From: a virus
Taxonomy: Duplodnaviria > Heunggongvirae > Uroviricota > Caudoviricetes
IMG/VR virus record: IMGVR_UViG_2690316105_000015
Coordinates: 1 to 9,920 of that record
Length of the DNA: 9,920 nt
Strand: one strand, 5' to 3'
Part shown: positions 1 to 9,920 of the stretch, in pieces
Layout of the letters: every line of letters begins with the position of its first letter
How positions within the stretch are numbered: the stretch's first letter is position 1
Position numbers and translations under genes: made by a program
The notes under the pieces: generated by a model
What the model saw: only the letters and a program-made list of their open reading frames with translations
What the model was told of the DNA's origin: nothing
Databases searched by the model: none

Positions 1-3000
1 CGCCTGCTGGTTCAGATACAGCGTAACGGTGGCTGGGTGACGGAAAAAGACATCACCATTAAGGGCAAAACCACCTCGCAGTATCTGGCCTCGGTGGTGG
101 TGGATAACCTGCCGCCGCGCCCGTTTAATATCCGGATGCGCAGAATGACGCCGGACAGCACCACAGACCAGCTGCAGAACAAAACGCTCTGGTCGTCATA
201 CACCGAAATCATCGATGTGAAACAGTGCTACCCGAACACGGCACTGGTCGGCGTACAGGTGGATTCGGAGCAGTTCGGCAGCCAGCAGGTGAGCCGTAAT
301 TATCATCTTCGCGGGCGCATTCTGCAGGTGCCGTCGAACTATAATCCGCAGACGCGGCAATACAGCGGTATCTGGGACGGAACGTTAAAACCGGCATACA
401 GCAACAACATGGCCTGGTGTCTGTGGGATATGCTGACCCATCCGCGCTATGGCATGGGGAAACGTCTTGGTGCGGCAGATGTGGATAAATGGGCGCTGTA
501 TGTCATCGGCCAGTACTGTGACCAGTCGGTGCCGGACGGCTTTGGCAGCACGGAGCCGCGCATCACCTGTAATGCCTGGCTGACCACACAGCGCAAGGCG
601 TGGGATGTGCTCAGTGATTTCTGCTCGGCGATGCGCTGTATGCCGGTATGGAACGGGCAGACGCTGACGTTCGTGCAGGACCGACCATCGGATAAGGTGT
701 GGACCTATAACCGCAGTAATGTGGTGATGCCGGATGATGGCGCGCCGTTCCGCTACAGTTTCAGCGCCCTGAAAGACCGCCATAATGCCGTTGAGGTGAA
801 CTGGATTGACCCGGATAACGGCTGGGAGACGGCGACAGAGCTTGTGGAGGATACGCAGGCCATTGTCCGTTACGGTCGTAACGTCACGAAGATGGATGCC
901 TTTGGCTGTACCAGCCGGGGGCAGGCACACCGCGCCGGGCTGTGGCTGATTAAAACGGAACTGCTGGAGACGCAGACCGTGGATTTCAGCGTGGGTGCTG
1001 AAGGGCTTCGTCATGTACCGGGCGATGTCATTGAAATCTGCGATGATGACTATGCCGGTATCCGCACCGGCGGGCGCGTGCTGGCGGTGAACAGCCAGAC
1101 CCGGACGCTGACGCTTGACCGTGAAATCACGCTGCCATCCTCCGGCACCACGCTGATAAGCCTGGTTGACGGGCAGGGGAATCCGGTCAGCGTGGAGGTC
1201 CAGTCCGTCACCGACGGCGTGAAGGTAAAAGTGAGCCGTGTTCCTGACGGTGTTGCTGAATACAGCGTGTGGGGGCTGAAGCTGCCGACGCTGCACCAGC
1301 GATTGTTCCGCTGCGTGAGTATCCGTGAGAACGACGACGGCACGTATGCCATCACCGCCGTGCAGCATGTGCCGGAAAAAGAAGCCATCGTGGATAACGG
1401 GGCGCACTTTGACGGCGACCAGAGCGGCACGGTGAATGGTGTCACGCCGCCAGCGGTGCAGCACCTGACTGCCGAAGTCACCGCAGACAGCGGGGAATAT
1501 CAGGTGCTGGCGCGCTGGGACACGCCGAAGGTGGTGAAGGGCGTGAGCTTCCTGCTCCGTCTGACCGTAACAGCGGATGACGGCAGTGAGCGGCTGGTCA
1601 GCACGGCCCGGACGACGGAAACCACTTACCGCTTCACACAACTGGCGCTGGGGAACTACAGGCTGACAGTCCGGGCAGTAAATGCGTGGGGGCAGCAGGG
1701 CGATCCGGCGTCGGTATCGTTCCGGATTGCCGCACCGGCAGCGCTGTCGCGGATTGAGCTGACGCCGGGCTATTTTCAGATAACCGCCACGCCGCATCTT
1801 GCGGTTTATGATCCGACGGTACAGTTTGAGTTCTGGTTCTCGGAAAAGCGGATTGCGGATATCAGGCAGGTTGAAACCACAGCACGCTATCTTGGCACGG
1901 CGCTGTACTGGATAGCCGCCAGTATCAATATCAAACCGGGCCATGATTATTACTTTTATATCCGCAGTGTGAACACCGTTGGCAAATCGGCATTCGTGGA
2001 GGCTGTTGGTCAGCCGAGTGATGATGCATCCGGTTATCTGGATTTTTTCAAAGGCGAGATAGGGAAAACCCATCTGGCTCAGGAGCTGTGGACGCAGATT
2101 GATAACGGTCAGCTTGCGCCTGACCTGGCTGAAATCAGGACGTCCATTACGGATGTCAGCAATGAAATCACGCAGACCGTCAATAAGAAACTGGAAGACC
2201 AGAGTGCGGCAATTCAGCAGATACAGAAGGTTCAGGTTGATACAAATAATAACCTGAACAGCATGTGGGCTGTGAAGCTGCAGCAGATGCAGGACGGACG
2301 CCTTTATATCGCGGGTATTGGTGCCGGTATTGAGAACACCCCTGACGGCATGCAGAGTCAGGTGCTGCTGGCGGCGGACAGGATTGCGATGGTTAATCCT
2401 GCGAATGGCAACACAAAACCGATGTTTGTTGGTCAGGGCGATCAGATATTCATGAACGACGTGTTCCTGAAACGCCTGACGGCCCCCACCATTACCAGCG
2501 GTGGAAATCCATCGGCATTTTCCCTGACTCCGGACGGAAAGCTGACCGCTAAAAATGCGGATATCAGTGGCAGTGTGAATGCGAACGCCGGGACGCTCAA
2601 CAATGTCACGGTAAATGAAAACTGTACGATTAAGGGCATGCTGGAGGCGACTCAGGTCAGAGGTGACTTCGTTAAAGCTGTATCCAAATCATTTCCGAAA
2701 CAGGCTGGTACGTGGGGTAACACGGAAACACCAAACGGGACGGTTACAGTCACCATAAGCGATGATCATAACTTTGACCGCCAGATTATTATTCCGCCCA
2801 TTATTTTTAACGGTATAGCGTATGACGATCCGGGGAGCGGAAATAACCCAGGAGGCACGCGATACACGGGTTATGGTTTTGAAGTTCGCAAAAACGGCGT
2901 ATTAATCGCATCCAGAGAAACTAAAGGTGCCATTCCCGGTAGTTACAGTGCAGTTATTGATATGCCTAGTGGTGGTGGTAGCGTCACTCTGGAGTTTAAG

Positions 3001-3093
3001 ATTTTCCAGAAAGGCAATCAGGGGGCAGGCAATATCACCGACTGTACGGTGATTGTGACCAAAAAAGCGGCTTCCGGCATCAGTATTCGTTGA
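1..3093 (+). CDS. J: Host specificity protein J (central tail fibre / tip attachment protein), 5'-partial; the reading frame is open from base 1, so the gene starts upstream of the window
   Basis: Frame 1 is open from position 1 to TGA at 3091-3093 (the ORF track lists the first in-frame Met at 37). The translation reads like lambda gpJ over most of its length as I remember it (e.g. [63 protein letters not shown], fibronectin-III-like segment around [22 protein letters not shown]). Gene order J-lom-stf-tfa matches lambda. Confidence 0.93.
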
Positions 3094-3115
3094 AATATTT
3101 ATAACCCCAATAAAT

Positions 3116-3139
3116 GGCGTCAGGAATGACGCCTTTTTT
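3116..3139 (+). terminator. Intrinsic (rho-independent) terminator downstream of J
   Basis: Perfect 7-bp GC-rich stem GGCGTCA (3116-3122) / TGACGCC (3127-3133), 4-nt loop GGAA, followed by T6 (3134-3139); lies 23 nt after the J stop codon. Confidence 0.8.
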
Positions 3140-3163
3140 ATTGCAGAAAAGCGAGAGGTAATT

Positions 3164-3763
3164 ATGCGTAAAGTTTGTGCAGCCATTTTGTCCGCAGCCA
3201 TTTGCCTGGCCGTATCCGGTGCGCCTGCATGGGCGTCTGAACATCAGTCCACGCTGAGCGCGGGGTATCTTCATGCCCGGACCAACGTTCCCGGCAGTGA
3301 TGATCTGAACGGGATTAACGTGAAATACCGTTATGAGTTTACGGACACACTGGGGCTGGTGACGTCATTCAGCTATGCAGGAGACAAGAATCGCCAGCTG
3401 ACCCGTTACAGCGATACCCGCTGGCATGAAGATTCCGTTCGTAACCGCTGGTTCAGCGTAATGGCGGGGCCGTCTGTGCGCGTGAATGAATGGTTCAGCG
3501 CGTATGCGATGGTGGGTGTGGCTTACAGCCGTGTGTCGACTTTCTCCGGGGATTATCTCCGCGTAACTGACAATAAGGGGAAAACGCACGATGTGCTGAC
3601 CGGAAGTGATGACGGTCGCCACAGCAACACGTCTCTGGCGTGGGGAGCTGGCGTGCAGTTTAACCCGACCGAATCCGTGGCCATTGATGTCGCTTATGAA
3701 GGCTCCGGCAGTGGTGACTGGCGCACTGACGGGTTCATCGTGGGTGTTGGTTATAAATTCTGA
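3164..3763 (+). CDS. lom: Outer membrane protein Lom (Ail/Lom family beta-barrel; prophage moron)
   Basis: 199-aa ORF with ATG at 3164 preceded by GAGAGG (3153-3158). N-terminal signal peptide MRKVCAAILSAAICLAVSGAPAWA. The protein reads as near-identical to lambda Lom as I recall it and ends in the typical outer-membrane beta-barrel C-terminus ...GFIVGVGYKF. Confidence 0.95.
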   Translation: MRKVCAAILSAAICLAVSGAPAWASEHQSTLSAGYLHARTNVPGSDDLNGINVKYRYEFTDTLGLVTSFSYAGDKNRQLTRYSDTRWHEDSVRNRWFSVMAGPSVRVNEWFSAYAMVGVAYSRVSTFSGDYLRVTDNKGKTHDVLTGSDDGRHSNTSLAWGAGVQFNPTESVAIDVAYEGSGSGDWRTDGFIVGVGYKF

Positions 3764-3789
3764 TTAGCCAGGTAACACAGTGTTATGAC

Positions 3790-3816
3790 AGCCCGCCGGT
3801 TCAGGCGGGCTTTTTT
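3790..3816 (+). terminator. Intrinsic terminator downstream of lom
   Basis: Stem AGCCCGCC (3790-3797) / GGCGGGCT (3804-3811), 6-nt loop GGTTCA, followed by a T run (3811-3816); lies between the lom stop and the stf start. Confidence 0.85.
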
Positions 3817-3827
3817 GTGGGGTGAAT

Positions 3828-6800
3828 ATGGCAGTAAAAATTTCAGGTGTACTGAAAGACGGCACAGGAAAACCGGTACAGAACTGCACAATCCAGCTGA
3901 AAGCAAAACGTAACAGCACCACGGTGGTGGTGAACACGCTGGCCTCAGAAAATCCGGATGAAGCCGGGCGTTACAGCATGGACGTTGAGTACGGTCAGTA
4001 CAGCGTTATTCTGTTGGTGGANNNNNNNNNNNNNATTTCAGGTGTACTGAAAGACGGCACAGGAAAACCGGTACAGAACTGCACAATCCAGCTGAAAGCA
4101 AAACGTAACAGTACCACGGTGGTGGTGAACACGCTGGCATCTGAAAATCCGGATGAAGCCGGGCGTTACAGTATGGACGTTGAGTACGGTCAGTACAGCG
4201 TTATTCTGTTGGTGGAAGGATTCCCGCCGTCACATGCCGGGACCATCACAGTGTATGAAGATTCCCGACCCGGTACGCTGAATGATTTTCTCGGTGCCAT
4301 GACGGAGGATGATGCCCGTCCGGAGGCACTGCGCCGTTTTGAGCTGATGGTGGAAGAGGTGGCGCGTAACGCGTCCGTGGTGGCACAGAACACGGCAGCC
4401 GCGAAGAAGTCAGCCAGTGATGCCAGCACATCAGCCCGTGAGGCGGCAACCCATGCGACTGATGCTGCAGGCTCAGCACGCGCAGCCAGCACGTCAGCCG
4501 GACAGGCCGCGTCGTCGGCTCAGTCAGCGACTTCCAGCGCAGGAACGGCATCAACAAAGGCCACTGAAGCATCAAAAAGTGCTGCCGCTGCAGAGTCCTC
4601 AAAAAGCGCGGCAGCTACCAGTGCCAGTGCCGCGAAAACGTCAGAAACGAATGCGGCAGCGTCACAACAATCAGCAGCCACTTCTGCATCCACCGCGACT
4701 ACGAAAGCGTCAGAAGCTGCCACCTCAGCCCGGGATGCGGCGGCTTCAAAAGAGGCGGCAAAATCATCAGAAACGAACGCATCCTCGAGCGCCAGTAGCG
4801 CAGCTTCCTCGGCAACAGCGGCAGGAAATTCCGCGAAGGCGGCAAAAACGTCAGAGACGAACGCCAGGTCTTCTGAAACGGCAGCGGGACAGAGCGCCTC
4901 GGCTGCGGCAGGCTCAAAAACAGCGGCTGCGTCGTCTGCCAGTGCAGCGTCAACAAGTGCCGGGCAGGCCTCAGCCAGTGCCACCGCCGCCGGAAAATCG
5001 GCAGAAAGCGCCGCATCGTCTGCTTCAACAGCCACAACGAAGGCTGGCGAAGCCACTGAACAGGCCAGCGCAGCAGCGAGGTCTGCTTCCGCAGCGAAGA
5101 CATCCGAAACGAACGCGAAAGCGTCGGAAACCAGCGCAGAATCCTCAAAAACGGCTGCCGCATCGTCCGCCAGTTCGGCGGCGTCATCGGCATCATCTGC
5201 GTCTGCTTCAAAAGATGAGGCGACCAGACAAGCGTCAGCAGCGAAGAGCAGCGCCACGACGGCATCCACGAAGGCGACAGAGGCAGCTGGCAGTGCGACG
5301 GCGGCAGCTCAGAGCAAAAGTACGGCGGAATCCGCGGCAACGCGCGCCGAGACAGCAGCTAAACGGGCAGAGGATATTGCATCCGCCGTGGCGCTTGAGG
5401 ATGCAAGTACGACGAAAAAGGGGATAGTACAGCTCAGCAGTGCGACCAACAGCACATCTGAAACGCTTGCCGCGACACCGAAGGCAGTTAAAGCAGCGAA
5501 TGACAATGCGAATGGCAGGGTACCATCTAACCGAAAAGTTAACGGGAAAGCACTGACTGCGGATATAACATTAACACCGAAAGATATTGGCACTTTAAAT
5601 TCAGTAACGATCTCTTTCTCTGGCGGGGCAGGGTGGTTCAAACTGGCAACGGTTACCATGCCACAAGCGAGTTCCATCGTTTACATCGCATTGATTGGTG
5701 GCGCTGGTTACAACGTCGGCTCCCCACATCAGGCAGGCATTTCAGAACTGGTTCTACGAGCAGGCAATGGAAACCCCAAAGGGATTACCGGAGCTTTGTG
5801 GAAGCGTACAGCCGTCGGATTAACGAATTTCGCCTGGATCAACACATCCGGCGATACATATGATATTTACGTTGAGATTGGCAATTATGCGACGAGTGTA
5901 AATATCCATTGGGATTGTACTACAAATGCGTCAGTTTCTATTTATACCTCGCCAACATATTCAGCGAGTAAGCCTTCCAGCGTTACCGGTGGTGTTGTTT
6001 ATACGATGTATAGCTCACATCAGAAACCTACACCATCAGATATTGGAGCGCTGCCAACGACTGGAGGGACTATTTCAGGTCCGTTGTCTGTTACTGATGG
6101 GATCACCGGGGCACTGAAGGGGAACGCCGATACCGCGACGAAACTTGCGGCAGCCCCAAAAATTAACGGTGTTAAGTTTGATGGCTCGGCGGATATTAAC
6201 CTCACGCCGGAAAATATTGGTGCATTTGCCCGACGTTCGACGGGGGCTTATGCGGATTCGGATGGAGCCGTTCCCTGGAATGCCGAATCAGGCGCTTACA
6301 ATGTCACCCGCTCTGGCAACAGCTATATTCTGGTTAACTTCTATACCGGAGTCGGAAGTTGCCGGACCTTGCAGATGAAGGCACATTACAGAAATGGAGG
6401 TCTGTTCTACCGTTCCTCAAGAGATGGCTATGGTTTTGAGGAAGACTGGGCAGAAGTTTATACCTCGAAAAATCTTCCACCAGAAAGCTACCCAGTCGGC
6501 GCACCAATCCCGTGGCCATCAGATACCGTTCCGTCTGGTTATGCCCTGATGCAGGGGCAGACTTTTGACAAATCTGCTTACCCGAAACTTGCAGCCGCTT
6601 ATCCGTCAGGTGTGATCCCTGATATGCGTGGCTGGACGATTAAGGGCAAACCTGCCAGTGGTCGGGCCGTATTGTCTCAGGAACAGGACGGCATTAAATC
6701 GCACACCCACAGCGCCAGCGTATCCAGTACGGATTTGGGGACGAAAAACACATCGTCGTTTGATTACGGAACCAAATCCACGAATAACACCGGGGCGCAT

Positions 6801-7181
6801 ACCCATAGTATTAGCGGGACTGCAAATAGTGCCGGTGCGCACCAACACAAGAGTTCCGGTGCATTTGGTGGCACGAACACGAGCATTTTCCCTAATGGTT
6901 ATACCGCGATTTCAAATCTAAGCGCGGGGATTATGAGCACAACAAGCGGTAGTGGCCAGACTCGTAATGCAGGGAAGACATCATCAGATGGTGCTCATAC
7001 CCACTCGCTGTCCGGCACTGCTGCAAGCGCAGGCGCACATGCACATACTGTCGGTATTGGTGCTCATACGCACTCCGTTGCGATTGGCTCACATGGACAC
7101 ACCATCACCGTTAACGCTGCTGGTAACGCGGAAAACACCGTCAAAAACATCGCATTTAACTATATTGTGAGGCTTGCATAA
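3828..7181 (+). CDS. stf: Side tail fibre protein Stf; the reading frame passes through a 13-N gap (4022-4034) and a duplicated 182-bp segment, so the true length is probably 65 codons shorter
   Basis: ATG at 3828 (the ORF track starts at an upstream GTG, 3822), stop TAA 7179-7181. Conserved N-terminus [26 protein letters not shown], long Ala/Ser/Thr-rich fibrous repeat region, and a C-terminus ...[22 protein letters not shown] that matches lambda Stf from memory. His-x-His repeats near the C-terminus. Confidence 0.88.
3840..4216 (+). repeat. Direct tandem duplication of 182 bp (copy 1 3840-4021, copy 2 4035-4216) separated by a 13-N assembly gap (4022-4034)
   Basis: The two copies align base-for-base at an offset of 195 nt, with 4 differences (3917 C/T, 3944 C/A, 3947 A/T, 3977 C/T). 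All four fall on third codon positions and are synonymous in the stf frame. Confidence 0.9.
4370..5420 (+). repeat. Low-complexity Ala/Ser/Thr-rich coding repeat region inside stf, with a recurring K-T/S-S-E-T-N-A unit
   Basis: Repeated nucleotide units such as gcgaaaacgtcagaaacgaatgcg (about 4625), gcaaaatcatcagaaacgaacgca (about 4757), gcaaaaacgtcagagacgaacgcc (about 4845) and gcgaagacatccgaaacgaacgcg (about 5094). This region also generates long spurious ORFs in other frames on both strands. Confidence 0.8.
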
Positions 7182-7765
7182 TGGTATTCAGAATGAGTGA
7201 ACAACCACGGACCATAACAATTTATAATCTGCTGGCCGGAACTAATGAATTTATTGGTGAAGGTGATGCATATATTCCGCCTCATACAGGTCTGCCAGCA
7301 AACAGTACCGATATTGCACCGCCAGATATTCCGGCAGGCTTCGTGGCTGTTTTCAACAGTGATGAGGCATCGTGGCATCTCGTTGAAGATCATCGGGGTA
7401 AAACGGTTTATGACGTGGCTTCCGGCGACGCGTTATTTATTTCTGAACTCGGTCCGTTACCGGAAAATGTTACCTGGTTATCGCCGGAAGGGGAGTTTCA
7501 GAAGTGGAACGGCACAGCCTGGGTGAAGGATACGGAAGCAGAAAAACTGTTCCGGATCCGGGAGGCGGAAGAAACAAAAAACAACCTGATGCAGGTAGCC
7601 AGTGAGCATATTGCGCCGCTTCAGGATGCTGCAGATCTGGAAATCGCAACGGAGGAAGAAACCTCGTTGCTTGAAGCCTGGAAGAAGTATCGAGTGTTGC
7701 TGAATCGTGTTGATACATCAACTGCACCTGATATTGAGTGGCCTACAGTACCTGTTATGGAATAA
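7181..7765 (+). CDS. tfa: Tail fibre assembly protein Tfa (chaperone for Stf)
   Basis: ATG at 7181 overlaps the stf stop by 1 nt (taATGg), indicating translational coupling. The 194-aa product [54 protein letters not shown]... reads like lambda Tfa as I remember it. Stop TAA at 7763-7765. Confidence 0.95.
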
Positions 7766-7822
7766 TCGTTACTGCTGTAGCCATAATAACGTCATATACA
7801 AGAGCTTGCTGGACTACGAAGA

Positions 7823-8030
7823 ATGCGCGCTGATTTTGAAGATAAAATCAGTGGTACAAAGTCCGAAAGGCCTGGGCTGAAAAAACTACTCAGAATATTA
7901 TCGGCAGGTGACACACTGATTGTCTGAAAGCTGGACTGACTGGGGGCGTTTTTTCTTCCATGTTATGGGGCTCAGGCCGAAATGGAACGTGGACTGACTG
8001 TTAAGAGAACAATAGTCGGGTTTTGAGGCT
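7823..8030 (+). pseudogene. Remnant of a Pin/Gin/Hin-family serine DNA invertase: truncated, with in-frame stops, an internal deletion and a frameshift
   Basis: Translation from 7823 gives MRADFEDKISGTKSERPGLKKLLRILSAGDTLIV*KLD*LG, matching the conserved invertase core ...FEDKxSGTxxDRPGLKxxLxxLxxGDTLVVWKLDRLG. The expected Trp and Arg codons are TGA here (7925-7927 and 7937-7939). A further fragment RFFFHVMG / AQAEMERGLTVKRTIVGF follows in shifted frames and corresponds to RFFFHVMGALAEMERELIIERT. The N-terminal catalytic-serine segment and the C-terminal HTH domain are absent. Confidence 0.7.
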
Positions 8031-8153
8031 GCGAGATTACATAGAGTTAATTGGTTGGTTAATAGGGTATAGAGGTTATCCAACTATTCGTTACGACATA
8101 TATTGTTGTTACCTACAAGTTATGAAAAATATATGATTTTATTAATCTTTTGT

Positions 8154-8192
8154 ATGTGCAGATTAATACTTAATACGCATCAATCTGCACAT
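8154..8192. terminator. Perfect 11-bp inverted repeat (hairpin) between the convergent prophage genes and the RT-TIR gene; possible bidirectional terminator
   Basis: ATGTGCAGATT (8154-8164) and its exact reverse complement AATCTGCACAT (8182-8192), 17-nt loop. Followed on the + strand by the T-rich TTGCTTTTG, and lies 18 nt downstream of the RT-TIR stop codon on the - strand. The loop is long for a classical intrinsic terminator. Confidence 0.35.
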
Positions 8193-8209
8193 TTGCTTTT
8201 GTGAGAGAA

Positions 8210-9844
8210 TTATCGTTGTAAGAGTGATTTAATATTGTTGGCGACTACTTCAGGATTATTATCATAGACCATATAAAGCTTATCACTAAGTAAAGGTAAT
8301 GATAGGTTTACGACCTCCTCGTCTTCTTTTTTTAATAAGGTCAAAAGTTTTACGTCGCCACTCGATATTTCGCTGGCTAAAACTGCTCTTAATTCTTTTT
8401 GAGGCCATTCCTTATTGACTGAATTAGCAGATAAAATAGCGATGACATATTTTGATTTAACTAGTGCTGCATTTATTTTCTCAATTAAGGAGTCGCCCCA
8501 TTTTATCTCAACATGATCTATGAAGGCTGAAATTTTAAGTTTAGTTAACTCGTCATATATTGGAATTGCAATGTCTTTTTTGTCTTCGCTTGCATGGCAT
8601 ATAAAAACATCAAAGTTTTCTGTTTCTTTCATTGCTCGCAATCCTTCTTGGGTTTTTAATGGATCGTTATGACTCATGTATGACATCAGTTTTAAATATC
8701 CTGGATAGTCTTTCCCTCTAACCATTTTTATAAAGCTAAGCCTTCCATAAATATGATTTCGGAAAATTTGAATTGCGTGGTTATTATCCTTTGCCTGATA
8801 TCCTTTTTCTGTAGCAAAGAGAAGTGCATACTTTAGCTTATCATCTGTCCATCTATGAATCATTGAACGTGTAATTCTTATATATCTTCTGTTAATGTTA
8901 ACTTTATCATTAACCACTAAGCCAGTAACACTTTGTCTTGTATTTCTGGTTTGAACTCTAAACTTATCATAATTTATTTTAAAGCCATTTTTTGAAATAA
9001 TATTGTCTATAGTTTCACTAAGACTATAACTTCCGTCATCGTTTTTTTTGATTATATCAATATTTCTCTGATTGAAAGAAAAAGTTATGTCGTCAGCATA
9101 CCTAGAATAAGATATTTTTTTTCTTCCTGCAAATTGGGTGAGCTGTTTGTCTAGAGAAGCTGATGCAATATTTGCTAATATTGGCGATGTACACGCACCT
9201 TGAGGTAATTTTCCATTGTGAGTACATAACTGAGCTAAAACAGTAGCTGCTGGATGAGCAAAATTAAAAGGTTTACTTTTAAATATTCCATAAACCCTGG
9301 CAAAACTTATTGATTCGAAATAGTTTTCTAGGTCAATGTTTACGACAAAATTTTTTTTAATATGCATCCCAGCATTAGTAATGATGCTCTTTCCTTTTAT
9401 AAAACCATGAGCAGATTTCTTTGGCCTGTAGAAATATTCAAGAACGGGCTTTAGTCTCGTTTGGAGTATCGATAGACCGCCACAAGGAGCATTAATGACT
9501 CTTTTTTTACCATTCTTCTTTTCTATTTCAAAAGTACGATAATTATCTTTTTTACGATATAGTATATAAAGTAATTGGCCAGCAGGAACTCCAAGTAAAT
9601 TGGCAATATCACTTACTGATGTTATAGCAATTTCCCCTGACTCAATCAATATACATATTTTAATCAGGTTATCAGGGGGAGTAACTTCAGTGCTAGTAAG
9701 TGTGTGGTTTATCCATTTAATTTTATGTCCATTGCTGTATGGTTTAGGTTCAATTTGAGGAAGTTCAGATATGAAGTCAGGGCTTTTTTTATTGGCTAAT
9801 GCGAAGTTATGCATTAATAATTTATCATGTAGCGACAAAACCAA
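8210..9844 (-). CDS. Retron-type reverse transcriptase fused to a C-terminal TIR domain (RT-TIR; candidate anti-phage defence effector). The true start is probably the TTG at 9838-9836 or the ATG at 9814-9812 rather than the TTG at 9844
   Basis: 544-codon ORF in AT-rich DNA. RT motifs in the expected order: AHGF, NAGMH (NAxxH), VNIDLENYFESI, LPQGACTSPILANI, YADD (codons at 9089-9100, catalytic motif C) and QSVTGLVVNDKVN (the VTG motif typical of retron RTs). C-terminal region about aa 411-500 (about 8345-8614): FDVFICHASEDKKDIAIPIYDEL...YVIAILSANSVNKEWPQKELRAVL, a typical bacterial TIR signature including the conserved Glu (E484, codon 8393-8395). AGGAG at 9849-9845 gives a 6-nt spacing to the TTG at 9838. 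Confidence 0.88.
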   Translation of the reverse strand: MVLSLHDKLLMHNFALANKKSPDFISELPQIEPKPYSNGHKIKWINHTLTSTEVTPPDNLIKICILIESGEIAITSVSDIANLLGVPAGQLLYILYRKKDNYRTFEIEKKNGKKRVINAPCGGLSILQTRLKPVLEYFYRPKKSAHGFIKGKSIITNAGMHIKKNFVVNIDLENYFESISFARVYGIFKSKPFNFAHPAATVLAQLCTHNGKLPQGACTSPILANIASASLDKQLTQFAGRKKISYSRYADDITFSFNQRNIDIIKKNDDGSYSLSETIDNIISKNGFKINYDKFRVQTRNTRQSVTGLVVNDKVNINRRYIRITRSMIHRWTDDKLKYALLFATEKGYQAKDNNHAIQIFRNHIYGRLSFIKMVRGKDYPGYLKLMSYMSHNDPLKTQEGLRAMKETENFDVFICHASEDKKDIAIPIYDELTKLKISAFIDHVEIKWGDSLIEKINAALVKSKYVIAILSANSVNKEWPQKELRAVLASEISSGDVKLLTLLKKEDEEVVNLSLPLLSDKLYMVYDNNPEVVANNIKSLLQR

Positions 9845-9920
9845 CTCCTATCGGATTGTAGGTAATGACTCCAACTTATTGATAGTGTTTTATGTTCAGA
9901 TAATGCCCGATGACTTTGTC

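What the first reader, a model, noticed from the sequence alone, without database searches (positions are those of the whole stretch)
8210..9844. Retron-like reverse transcriptase with a C-terminal TIR domain (candidate RT-TIR defence system) at the end of the prophage tail-fibre module
One polypeptide carries a complete retron-type RT (NAxxH, YADD and the retron-characteristic VTG motif) and, after a linker of about 80 aa, a TIR domain with the FDVFISHASEDK-like start and a conserved Glu in the WPQKELRA context. From established knowledge, retrons are anti-phage systems that act by abortive infection, and bacterial TIR domains are NAD+-consuming or signalling effectors; RT-TIR fusions have been reported as a retron class, so this is probably a member of a known but little-studied class rather than a new family. 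Here it sits as AT-rich cargo directly beside stf-tfa of a lambdoid prophage, suggesting a prophage-carried defence (superinfection exclusion) gene. How a TIR effector is held in check by msDNA is not well understood, which makes this copy worth study.
Basis: partly seen in the sequence, partly recalled or inferred. Interest (0 to 1): 0.85.

Follow-up and report, generated by a model that had tools for sequence, protein, structure and literature searches.

The report
Known retron-TIR gene cut from its RNA
This is an intact copy of an already known anti-phage gene (a retron reverse transcriptase fused to a TIR domain) carried by a prophage, but here an IS1 insertion separates it from the promoter and non-coding RNA it needs, so the copy is ordinary and probably impaired.

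Summary
Window 8210-9844 (minus strand) is one intact ORF encoding a retron-type reverse transcriptase fused to a TIR domain. It passes NCBIfam's equivalog model for Retron-TIR (672 bits, cutoff 600) and matches PADLOC RT-TIR_XII (E 7e-188). The NAxxH, YADD and VTG motifs and the TIR Glu are invariant across 25 homologues.

The protein is identical to RefSeq WP_047627604.1. It occurs in 83 of 5426 complete E. coli genomes, always between tfa and dinI-prfC at the end of a lambdoid prophage. It is therefore a known system: type XII retron, "Retron-TIR", tested by Gao et al. 2020.

Window 9861-9920 is the insB end of an IS1. It is inserted 22 nt upstream of the likely TTG start and 7 nt downstream of where the retron ncRNA ends in intact loci. 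The msr-msd RNA is conserved and covarying in nine genera, but it and its promoter are absent from the window (best model score 7 bits, against 143 bits in an intact locus). None of the 84 complete-genome copies has this junction.

This copy is probably poorly expressed or non-functional. The far side of the IS1 lies outside the window and cannot be seen.

The parts
8210..9838 (-). RT-TIR coding sequence (type XII retron). It is 542 aa from the TTG at 9838. RefSeq starts at the ATG at 9814 (534 aa). The maximal ORF starts at the TTG at 9844 (544 aa).
   Evidence: The DNA is 100% identical to E. coli 4/1-1. The 534-aa protein is found exactly in 729 assembly blocks.
8921..9526 (-). RT fingers/palm (Pfam RVT_1). 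YADD is at 9089-9100.
   Evidence: RVT_1, E 3e-19. (NAxxH and YADD invariant). (Ec86 RT, TM 0.78; Eco2, E 1e-27).
8621..8890 (-). RT thumb: four helices, residues 309-398 in 534-aa numbering.
   Evidence: helices H309-337, H344-366, H371-383, H389-398, high pLDDT. (retron RT profiles of types XI and I-C align through to about residue 417-423).
8270..8608 (-). TIR domain. The putative catalytic Glu (E474 in 534-aa numbering) is the GAA codon at 8393-8395.
   Evidence: TIR_2, E 1.2e-18. (AbTIR E 7e-17; Glu aligned to WTNYEL). (7uxu, TM 0.87, rmsd 2.0). (Glu invariant).
9845..9849 (-). Shine-Dalgarno AGGAG, 6 nt before the TTG at 9838.
   Evidence: Read from the sequence. Homologues start at the equivalent Met.
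9861..9920 (-). insB-proximal end of an IS1 element, co-oriented with RT-TIR. The last 14 codons and stop of insB are at 9876-9920, and the terminal inverted repeat abuts 9861. It replaces the retron promoter and msr-msd found here in intact loci.
   Evidence: 98-100% identity to IS1 in many phage records. (P1 IS1 annotation: insB ends 15 nt from this end). (breakpoint at 9860/9861). (no complete E. coli genome has this junction).
8154..8192 (-). 16-bp hairpin 18 nt after the RT-TIR stop codon. It is a candidate terminator but has no U-tract.
   Evidence: -24.4 kcal/mol, z -5.6, 0 of 200 shuffles as stable. The consensus terminator scan does not call it.
7796..8026 (+). Degraded fragment of a Pin/Hin-type DNA invertase lying between tfa and the AT-rich retron cargo.
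   Evidence: FEDKISGTKSERPGLKKLLRILSAGDTLIV with in-frame stops. (RefSeq annotation: 'recombinase family protein, frameshifted').
37..7765 (+). Context: lambdoid prophage tail module. J 37-3093, lom 3164-3763, stf 3822-7181, tfa 7181-7765.
   Evidence: Pfam GpJ domains, Ail_Lom E 1e-121, phage_tail_N, Caudo_TAP. (RefSeq annotation of the matching locus).

Best explanation
The ORF is the protein component of a type XII retron (Retron-TIR). It is carried as AT-rich cargo at the right end of a lambdoid prophage that sits next to prfC.

In the intact allele, a promoter about 15 nt upstream of the a1 repeat drives one transcript, msr-msd-RT-TIR. The RT domain binds the msr hairpin and copies the msd stem into msDNA. 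By analogy with the RT-Toprim retron Eco2, the msDNA-protein complex is inferred to hold the TIR domains inactive. A phage activity that damages or binds the msDNA would then release them. The TIR domains would self-associate and hydrolyse NAD+, aborting the infection.

In this window, an IS1 co-oriented with the gene has inserted 7 nt after the a2 repeat and 22 nt before the likely start codon. The ORF and its Shine-Dalgarno are intact, but the native promoter and ncRNA are at least 768 bp away or lost. The copy is therefore most likely poorly expressed and impaired as a defence system.

Shown here: family membership, motifs, fold, the ncRNA in intact loci, the IS1 junction, and the absence of the ncRNA from the window.
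Inferred: msDNA caging, NAD+ depletion, and loss of function.
For: Family and fold:
- NCBIfam equivalog above its cutoff and PADLOC RT-TIR_XII.
- Retron RT and AbTir-like TIR folds.
- Invariant catalytic motifs.

ncRNA in intact loci:
- A perfect 10-nt a1/a2 inverted repeat at L001 10229-10238 and 10103-10112.
- A promoter-like TTTACT-17-TATGAT at L001 10279-10251.
- The block is conserved upstream of RT-TIR in 9 genera.
- 93% of cells are paired, against 32-50% in slid controls, and 8 of 18 pairs show compensatory changes.

IS1 insertion:
- Identity to the intact allele stops at 9860.
- Window 9861-9920 is the insB end of IS1.
- The covariance model scores 143 bits in intact loci but at most 7.4 bits anywhere in the window.
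- There is no sigma-70-like site on the minus strand upstream of the start.
- All 84 complete-genome copies keep the ncRNA and RT contiguous.

Literature:
- Retron-TIR (type XII) mediates defence and needs the fused domain (PMC7736814, citing Gao 2020).
- msDNA synthesis and structure are required for defence (PMC7699616).
- Retron-TIR defends against T5 (bioRxiv 10.1101/2022.06.09.495361).
- Eco2 cages its effector in an msDNA scaffold, and its authors suggest the same may apply to type XII (PMC12916289).
Against: - The far side of the IS1 lies outside the window. A simple insertion would leave an intact ncRNA 0.8 kb away, and retron ncRNA and RT can work in trans (established from recombineering practice).
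- The IS1 is co-oriented with the gene, so read-through from the retron promoter or from the IS1 promoter could still express RT-TIR. That IS1 is polar is my recollection and was not tested here.
- NAD+ hydrolysis by this TIR domain, and msDNA caging, have not been shown for any type XII retron in the papers I could read.
- The assembly is a draft (13 N at 4022-4034), so junction quality is not guaranteed.
Confidence: 0.85

Rival explanations
1. The retron is still fully functional. The IS1 is a simple insertion, the intact msr-msd is transcribed from its own promoter on the far side, and RT-TIR is transcribed by read-through across the co-oriented IS1 or from a promoter in or near it. The protein then acts on the ncRNA in trans.
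For: - The ORF and Shine-Dalgarno are untouched and 100% identical to intact alleles.
- The insertion point lies 7 nt beyond a2 and 3 nt beyond the end of the ncRNA model match, so it need not damage the ncRNA.
- insAB reads toward RT-TIR.
Against: - No promoter-like site is seen on the minus strand in the 80 nt before the start.
- IS1 insertions are classically polar (my recollection).
- None of the 84 complete-genome copies tolerates any spacer between the ncRNA and the RT.
- Other E. coli lineages show outright IS or frameshift disruption of this gene, which suggests decay is common.
Confidence: 0.25
2. The IS1 junction is an assembly artefact, a contig end mis-extended into a repeat, and the real genome carries the ordinary intact retron.
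For: - The window comes from a draft scaffold. It has a 13-N gap at 4022-4034 followed by at least 60 nt repeated from 3840.
- The window ends inside the IS1 after only 60 nt.
- The exact junction was found in no complete E. coli genome, viral contig or metagenome contig.
Against: - The break falls exactly at the terminal base of the IS1 inverted repeat. The retron and IS1 share no sequence that could mislead an assembler. That pattern is what a true insertion gives.
- IS1 has also inserted independently inside this AT-rich gene in strain F1053.
Confidence: 0.07
3. It is not a retron but another defence RT (a DRT/UG or Abi-type RT) or a group II intron RT that happens to carry a TIR domain.
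For: There are weak secondary hits to group II intron RT (64 bits, cutoff 300) and to Drt2 (35 bits, cutoff 390).
Against: - Both hits are far below their cutoffs, while the Retron-TIR equivalog is above its own.
- The retron-specific VTG motif is invariant.
- A covarying a1/a2-flanked ncRNA lies directly upstream in intact loci of nine genera.
- The closest solved structures are all retron RTs.
Confidence: 0.01

Closest known systems
Retron-TIR (type XII retron) of Shigella dysenteriae NCTC2966, tested by Gao et al. 2020 (Addgene 157883). RefSeq family NF042941, 'TIR domain-containing anti-phage reverse transcriptase'.
   Same: - Same single-polypeptide RT-TIR architecture.
- It passes the equivalog model built for this family and the PADLOC RT-TIR_XII model.
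- Intact E. coli alleles have the upstream msr-msd.
   Different: - I could not obtain the NCTC2966 sequence, so the percent identity to the tested protein is unknown.
- This copy has an IS1 between the ncRNA and the RT gene, and the window lacks the ncRNA and promoter.
Retron Eco2 / Ec67 (type I-C1, RT-Toprim fusion; PDB 9i2f, 9lm3, 9s1f)
   Same: - It is the closest solved structure and sequence for the RT part (E 1e-41; Foldseek E 1e-27).
- It is also a one-protein retron with a C-terminal effector. It is the only RT-effector fusion with a known mechanism: an msDNA scaffold cages the effector and a phage nuclease releases it (PMC12916289).
   Different: - Its effector is a Toprim RNase that cuts tRNA, not a TIR domain.
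- RT-TIR has an extra N-terminal segment of about 60 aa (the alignment starts at query residue 63).
- The oligomeric state and trigger of type XII are unknown.
Bacterial TIR NADases AbTir (PDB 7uwg, 7uxu, 8g83), Brucella TcpB/BtpA (4lzp, 4lqc) and PdTIR (3h16)
   Same: - The TIR domain aligns over about 127 residues (E 4e-17 to 2e-13).
- The Glu of WPQKEL falls on the Glu of WTNYEL.
- The predicted fold superposes on the AbTir-3AD filament subunit with TM 0.87 and rmsd 2.0 A.
   Different: - Those are stand-alone virulence or effector TIR proteins with coiled-coil N-termini and no RT or msDNA control.
- Which product this TIR makes (NAD+ depletion or a cADPR isomer) is untested.
Type XI retron (RT fused to a trypsin-like protease)
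   Same: It is the next-best PADLOC match across the RT and thumb (E 5e-121, residues 74-417), and it falls in the same RT clade 8 in Mestre et al. 2020.
   Different: The C-terminal effector is a protease, not a TIR domain.
Thoeris ThsB and other TIR-based defence sensors
   Same: They share the TIR domain. There is a weak hit to Thoeris type III ThcB4 (28 bits, cutoff 220).
   Different: - Thoeris TIRs make a signal for a separate effector (ThsA).
- No such partner gene lies next to RT-TIR in any locus examined.

Membership tests
Retron (general) | A reverse transcriptase of the retron clade with NAxxH, YADD and the retron-specific VTG motif | tested here: met
   The motifs are invariant in 25 homologues. 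The best PDB relatives are retron RTs: Ec67 (1e-41) and Ec86 (2e-33). The fold matches Ec86 RT with TM 0.78.
Retron (general) | An adjacent msr-msd non-coding RNA flanked by a1/a2 inverted repeats, immediately upstream of the RT | tested here: not met
   This fails for the window copy only. An IS1 end occupies 9861-9920, and the covariance model R1 finds nothing in the window (best 7.4 bits, E 0.76). The feature is met in the intact allele: L001 10099-10241 scores 143 bits, a1/a2 is a perfect 10-nt repeat, and it covaries in 9 genera. The failure is therefore a lesion of this copy and not evidence against the family.
Retron (general) | Production of msDNA (branched RNA-DNA) | not testable with these tools
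   This needs msDNA extraction and a gel, or sequencing. The branching G could not be assigned from sequence alone.
Type XII retron / Retron-TIR (NF042941; PADLOC RT-TIR_XII) | [quoted passage not shown] | tested here: met
   Pfam TIR_2 at residues 413-525 of the same ORF. NF042941 scores 672.3 bits against a cutoff of 600, covering model positions 1-463 of 464. PADLOC scores E 6.9e-188 and describes the system as 'single gene'.
Type XII retron / Retron-TIR | Anti-phage activity that depends on the RT, the TIR domain and msDNA | not testable with these tools
   Reported for the family by Gao 2020, as cited in PMC7736814 and PMC7699616. T5 protection is shown in bioRxiv 10.1101/2022.06.09.495361. 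It has not been tested for this allele.
Catalytically active (NADase) TIR domains | A conserved catalytic Glu after the W-containing strand, in a TIR fold | tested here: met
   E474 is invariant in 25 sequences and aligns with the Glu of AbTir WTNYEL. That this residue is AbTir E208 is from my memory of the literature. The fold matches with TM 0.87. Enzymatic activity itself was not tested.
Prophage-borne defence cargo (moron) | Located inside a prophage, with composition distinct from the structural genes and variable presence among related prophages | tested here: met
   The region is 31-34% GC against 47-64% for the tail genes. It lies between tfa and dinI-prfC in every E. coli place examined. 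It is present in only 83 of 5426 complete genomes. Relatives ride in P4-like satellites and in a P2-like prophage.

The most novel reading that the evidence does not exclude
The IS1 allele may be a natural uncoupling experiment. Suppose RT-TIR is still made, by read-through across the co-oriented IS1, while msDNA supply is reduced or lost, and the strain is nevertheless healthy. Then msDNA-free RT-TIR is not auto-toxic. That would mean the msDNA of type XII retrons acts as an assembly scaffold or co-activator for the TIR NADase, and not as a simple antitoxin.

Alternatively, repeated IS hits in this gene could mean the system is costly and is recurrently silenced.
Probability: 0.1. Interest if true: 0.45.

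Novelty: already known. Interest (0 to 1): 0.2.

Why it matters
It matters little as a discovery. The protein is already named in RefSeq, detected by PADLOC and NCBIfam, present in about 1.5% of complete E. coli genomes, and belongs to a class shown to defend against phage in 2020.

The family itself remains mechanistically open. No type XII structure is in the PDB copy searched. A 2026 paper states that Eco2 is the only RT-effector fusion with a known mechanism (PMC12916289).

The practical lesson from this copy is different. Single-gene detection rules would call this a complete defence system even though an IS1 has removed its promoter and ncRNA from their native position. Anyone cloning it should take the ncRNA from an intact allele, for example E. 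coli 4/1-1, NZ_CP023844 5111646-5111793 (the span of the covariance-model match).

Tried and rejected
- **Rfam.** I searched the window and the intact upstream region. No retron msr family matched, so the ncRNA had to be defined de novo.
- **Source genome and far side of the IS1.** The 141-nt junction query found no complete E. coli genome covering it. The exact 31-nt junction was absent from viral contigs and metagenome contigs. This remains unresolved.
- **The search for related loci on genome contigs.** It returned only about eight TIR-bearing loci from Alphaproteobacteria and Nitrospirales. The ncRNA model did not detect an ncRNA in these. The enterobacterial loci were fetched one at a time with the look-up of encoding contigs instead.
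- **Gao et al. 2020.** The paper could not be read, by DOI or by PMC id. Statements about it come second-hand from papers that cite it.
- **The retron census preprint.** It does not mention type XII or TIR.
- **IS1 orientation.** I first took the IS1 end to be the insA (left) end reading away from the gene. The P1 IS1 annotation showed it is the insB end, co-oriented with RT-TIR, and I corrected this.
- **Non-retron RT readings.** Group II intron RT and DRT were rejected on scores far below their cutoffs.
- **Plus-strand ORFs inside the gene.** The ORFs at 8520-8672 and 9600-9758 are short, and I treated them as chance ORFs. I did not search them against any database.
Full report
**1. What is in the window**

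The window holds the right end of a lambdoid prophage on the plus strand.
- J, partial, at 37-3093.
- lom at 3164-3763.
- The side tail fibre stf at 3822-7181.
- The tail-fibre assembly gene tfa at 7181-7765.

All four are confirmed by Pfam and by the RefSeq annotation of a matching E. coli locus.

After tfa comes a degraded fragment of a Pin/Hin-type invertase at 7796-8026. GC content then drops from about 50% to 31-34%. In that AT-rich block, on the minus strand, lies one uninterrupted ORF at 8210-9844. This is the finding.

**2. Checking the observation**

The ORF product matches:
- Pfam RVT_1 (E 3e-19) and TIR_2 (E 1.2e-18).
- PADLOC RT-TIR_XII (E 6.9e-188).
- The NCBIfam equivalog NF042941, 'TIR domain-containing anti-phage reverse transcriptase', at 672 bits against a curated cutoff of 600 and covering the whole model.

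A database search found 2620 relatives with E below 1e-30. I aligned 25 of them, spanning 40-83% identity and taxa from Enterobacterales to Pseudomonas and Sulfurimonas. NAxxH, YADD, VTG, the FxxxHASE(D)K start of the TIR domain and the WP..E Glu are all invariant in that alignment.

An AlphaFold model built on the alignment has mean pLDDT 84.
- Its RT part superposes on retron Eco2 (E 1e-27) and on Ec86 RT (TM 0.78).
- Its TIR part superposes on the AbTir-3AD filament subunit (TM 0.87, rmsd 2.0 A).
- By sequence, the Glu of WPQKEL aligns with the Glu of AbTir WTNYEL. From memory, that residue is the catalytic E208.

There are four corrections.
- The gene is on the minus strand.
- The 'linker' is the four-helix RT thumb.
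- The start codon is probably the TTG at 9838, preceded by AGGAG, which matches the 'MSLHDK' start of homologues. RefSeq uses the ATG at 9814.

**3. How common it is**

The DNA from 7766 to 9860 is 100% identical to E. coli 4/1-1. The 534-aa protein is RefSeq WP_047627604.1 and occurs exactly in 729 blocks of public assemblies. Its 90%-identity cluster has 795 members, named from E. coli and Shigella flexneri.

Among 5426 complete E. coli genomes, 83 carry it. In every place examined the order is prfC, dinI-like, a 357-nt gap, RT-TIR, tfa, stf, while the interior of the prophage varies.

In other genera, relatives sit in different mobile elements.
- After the primase of P4-like satellites in Erwinia, Salmonella, Citrobacter, Yersinia and Serratia.
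- After gpA in a P2-like prophage in Providencia.

These are typical homes for mobile defence cargo.

**4. The ncRNA in intact loci**

In the intact locus, the 357-nt gap upstream of RT-TIR contains:
- A perfect 10-nt inverted repeat 116 nt apart, at L001 10229-10238 and 10103-10112.
- A sigma-70-like TTTACT-17-TATGAT just upstream of it.
- A fold in which the two repeats close a structure holding a small 5' hairpin and a long central hairpin.

This block is conserved upstream of RT-TIR in nine genera, while the sequence on both sides of it is not.

On the trimmed alignment, the a1/a2 stem (12 pairs) and the 5' msr hairpin (6 pairs) are 93% paired, against 32-50% when the partners are slid. 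Eight of the 18 pairs show compensatory changes. Examples are CGGCTCTGCC/GGCAGAGCCG in E. coli, GGCTCCACC/GGTGGAGCC in Yersinia and GGTTTCAACC/GGTTGAAACC in Vibrio. The central region varies in sequence, as expected of an msd stem.

This is the retron msr-msd. Mestre et al. 2020 listed the ncRNA type of type XII as 'nd'. Rfam has no model that detects it.

**5.

Identity between the window and all intact alleles stops at 9860. Window 9861-9920 is the terminal 60 nt of IS1.

The annotated IS1 of phage P1 shows that this is the insB end. The last codons of insB lie on the minus strand, so the IS1 reads toward RT-TIR.

The insertion point is 7 nt past a2, 11 nt before the Shine-Dalgarno and 22 nt before the TTG start. 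The coding sequence and ribosome-binding site are therefore intact. The native promoter and msr-msd are displaced by at least a whole IS1, or deleted.

A covariance model of the ncRNA scores 143 bits on intact loci and at most 7.4 bits (E 0.76) anywhere in the window with filters off. No promoter-like site lies on the minus strand between the window end and the start codon.

None of the 84 complete-genome copies has anything inserted between the ncRNA and the RT, and none has this junction. The junction is also absent from viral and metagenome contigs.

The gene is a repeated target of decay elsewhere.
- IS1A lies inside the ORF in strain F1053.
- ISSen4 lies inside it in three genomes.
- IS4 lies inside it in one genome.
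- At least three more copies are split or frameshifted.

**6. Mechanism**

Shown here: a retron RT with intact catalytic motifs; a TIR domain with the fold and Glu of NAD+-cleaving bacterial TIRs; and, in intact loci, a covarying ncRNA directly upstream.

From the literature:
- Retron-TIR defends against phage and needs the fused domain (PMC7736814, citing Gao 2020).
- msDNA synthesis and structure are required for defence (PMC7699616).
- The S. dysenteriae NCTC2966 system protects against T5, and a phage anti-TIR protein partly overcomes it (bioRxiv 10.1101/2022.06.09.495361).

Inferred, by analogy with Eco2: in Eco2 a branched msDNA scaffold cages the fused Toprim until a phage nuclease degrades the msDNA, and its authors suggest the same may hold for type XII (PMC12916289). 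On that model, the msDNA-RT complex keeps the TIR domains from self-associating. A phage insult to the msDNA frees them. They then consume NAD+ and abort the infection.

No partner effector gene is present in any locus examined. That favours NAD+ depletion over a Thoeris-like signal.

For this copy I estimate about a 60% chance that defence is substantially impaired. Expression must now come across an IS1, and from memory IS1 is polar in both orientations. About 25% goes to the rival that the system still works, with the ncRNA acting in trans. About 7% goes to an assembly artefact, because the scaffold is a draft with a 13-N gap and a duplicated segment at 4022-4034.

**7. Verdict**

It is an already known system, and the very protein is named in RefSeq.

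The only new information is that this copy has been cut off from its promoter and ncRNA by an IS1. That lowers its value as a study object and is a caution for single-gene defence annotation.

Interest is low, at 0.2. The family as a whole still lacks a structure and a demonstrated effector chemistry, but this window adds nothing that intact alleles do not offer.

Noticed in passing
window 4022-4034 and 3840-3900 / 4035-4095: There is a run of 13 N inside the stf gene. It is immediately followed by a repeat of at least 60 nt (but fewer than 100) that already occurs at 3840. This looks like a scaffold join that duplicated the overlap, so the stf ORF as written (1119 aa with XXXXX) is an assembly artefact at its 5' end.
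   Followed up: partly
window 7524-7722 (+): A full-length Rfam match to IS009 (RF02111; 217.9 bits against a gathering score of 117; E 6e-54) lies entirely inside the tfa coding sequence. It may be a conserved tfa segment curated as an sRNA.
   Followed up: no
window 7796-8026 (+): A fragment of a Pin/Hin-type serine invertase (FEDKISGTKSERPGLKKLLR..GDTLIV) with in-frame stops and no N-terminus lies between tfa and the retron cargo. This suggests the cargo replaced most of a tail-fibre invertase gene.
   Followed up: partly
window 8154-8192 (-): A perfect 16-bp hairpin (-24.4 kcal/mol, z -5.6) lies 18 nt after the RT-TIR stop codon. It has no U-tract, so the terminator scan does not call it.
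   Followed up: partly
window 9814-9844 (-): Start-codon ambiguity. RefSeq starts at the ATG at 9814 (534 aa). Homologues in Erwinia, Providencia, Edwardsiella and others start 'MSLH..', which corresponds to the TTG at 9838, 6 nt after an AGGAG. Some E. coli records (WP_251005777.1, 542 aa) already use it.
   Followed up: partly
L101 (NZ_OY757949.1) 1501-3906, and hits H22-H25, H122-H123, H151, H159-H160: RT-TIR has been disrupted independently in other complete E. coli genomes. IS1A, ISSen4 and IS4 lie inside the ORF in different genomes, and several copies are frameshifted or split. At least 8 of 84 records are affected. This may be a sign of a fitness cost, or simply of an AT-rich IS target.
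   Followed up: partly
L092, L093, L095, L097, L098 (about 2400-3000) and L096: In Erwinia, Salmonella, Citrobacter, Yersinia and Serratia, the same retron family sits directly after a D5/Pox_D5-type primase and a DUF5375 gene (a P4-like satellite). In Providencia it sits after phage gpA in a P2-like prophage. So one retron family uses at least three kinds of mobile-element cargo slot.
   Followed up: partly
RT-TIR residues 1-62 (window about 9629-9814, minus strand): An N-terminal extension of about 60 aa (a predicted beta-hairpin plus a helix, pLDDT 60-84) is conserved in Enterobacterales and Vibrio. It is absent from the Pseudomonas, Halomonas, Nitrosomonas and Sulfurimonas homologues and from Eco2. 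Its function is unknown.
   Followed up: no
window 4400-5400 (+): The stf gene contains a long Ala/Ser/Thr-rich repeat region (…AAKTSETNA…). It has a strong AT skew (about 0.4) and long spurious ORFs in other frames and on the opposite strand.
   Followed up: no
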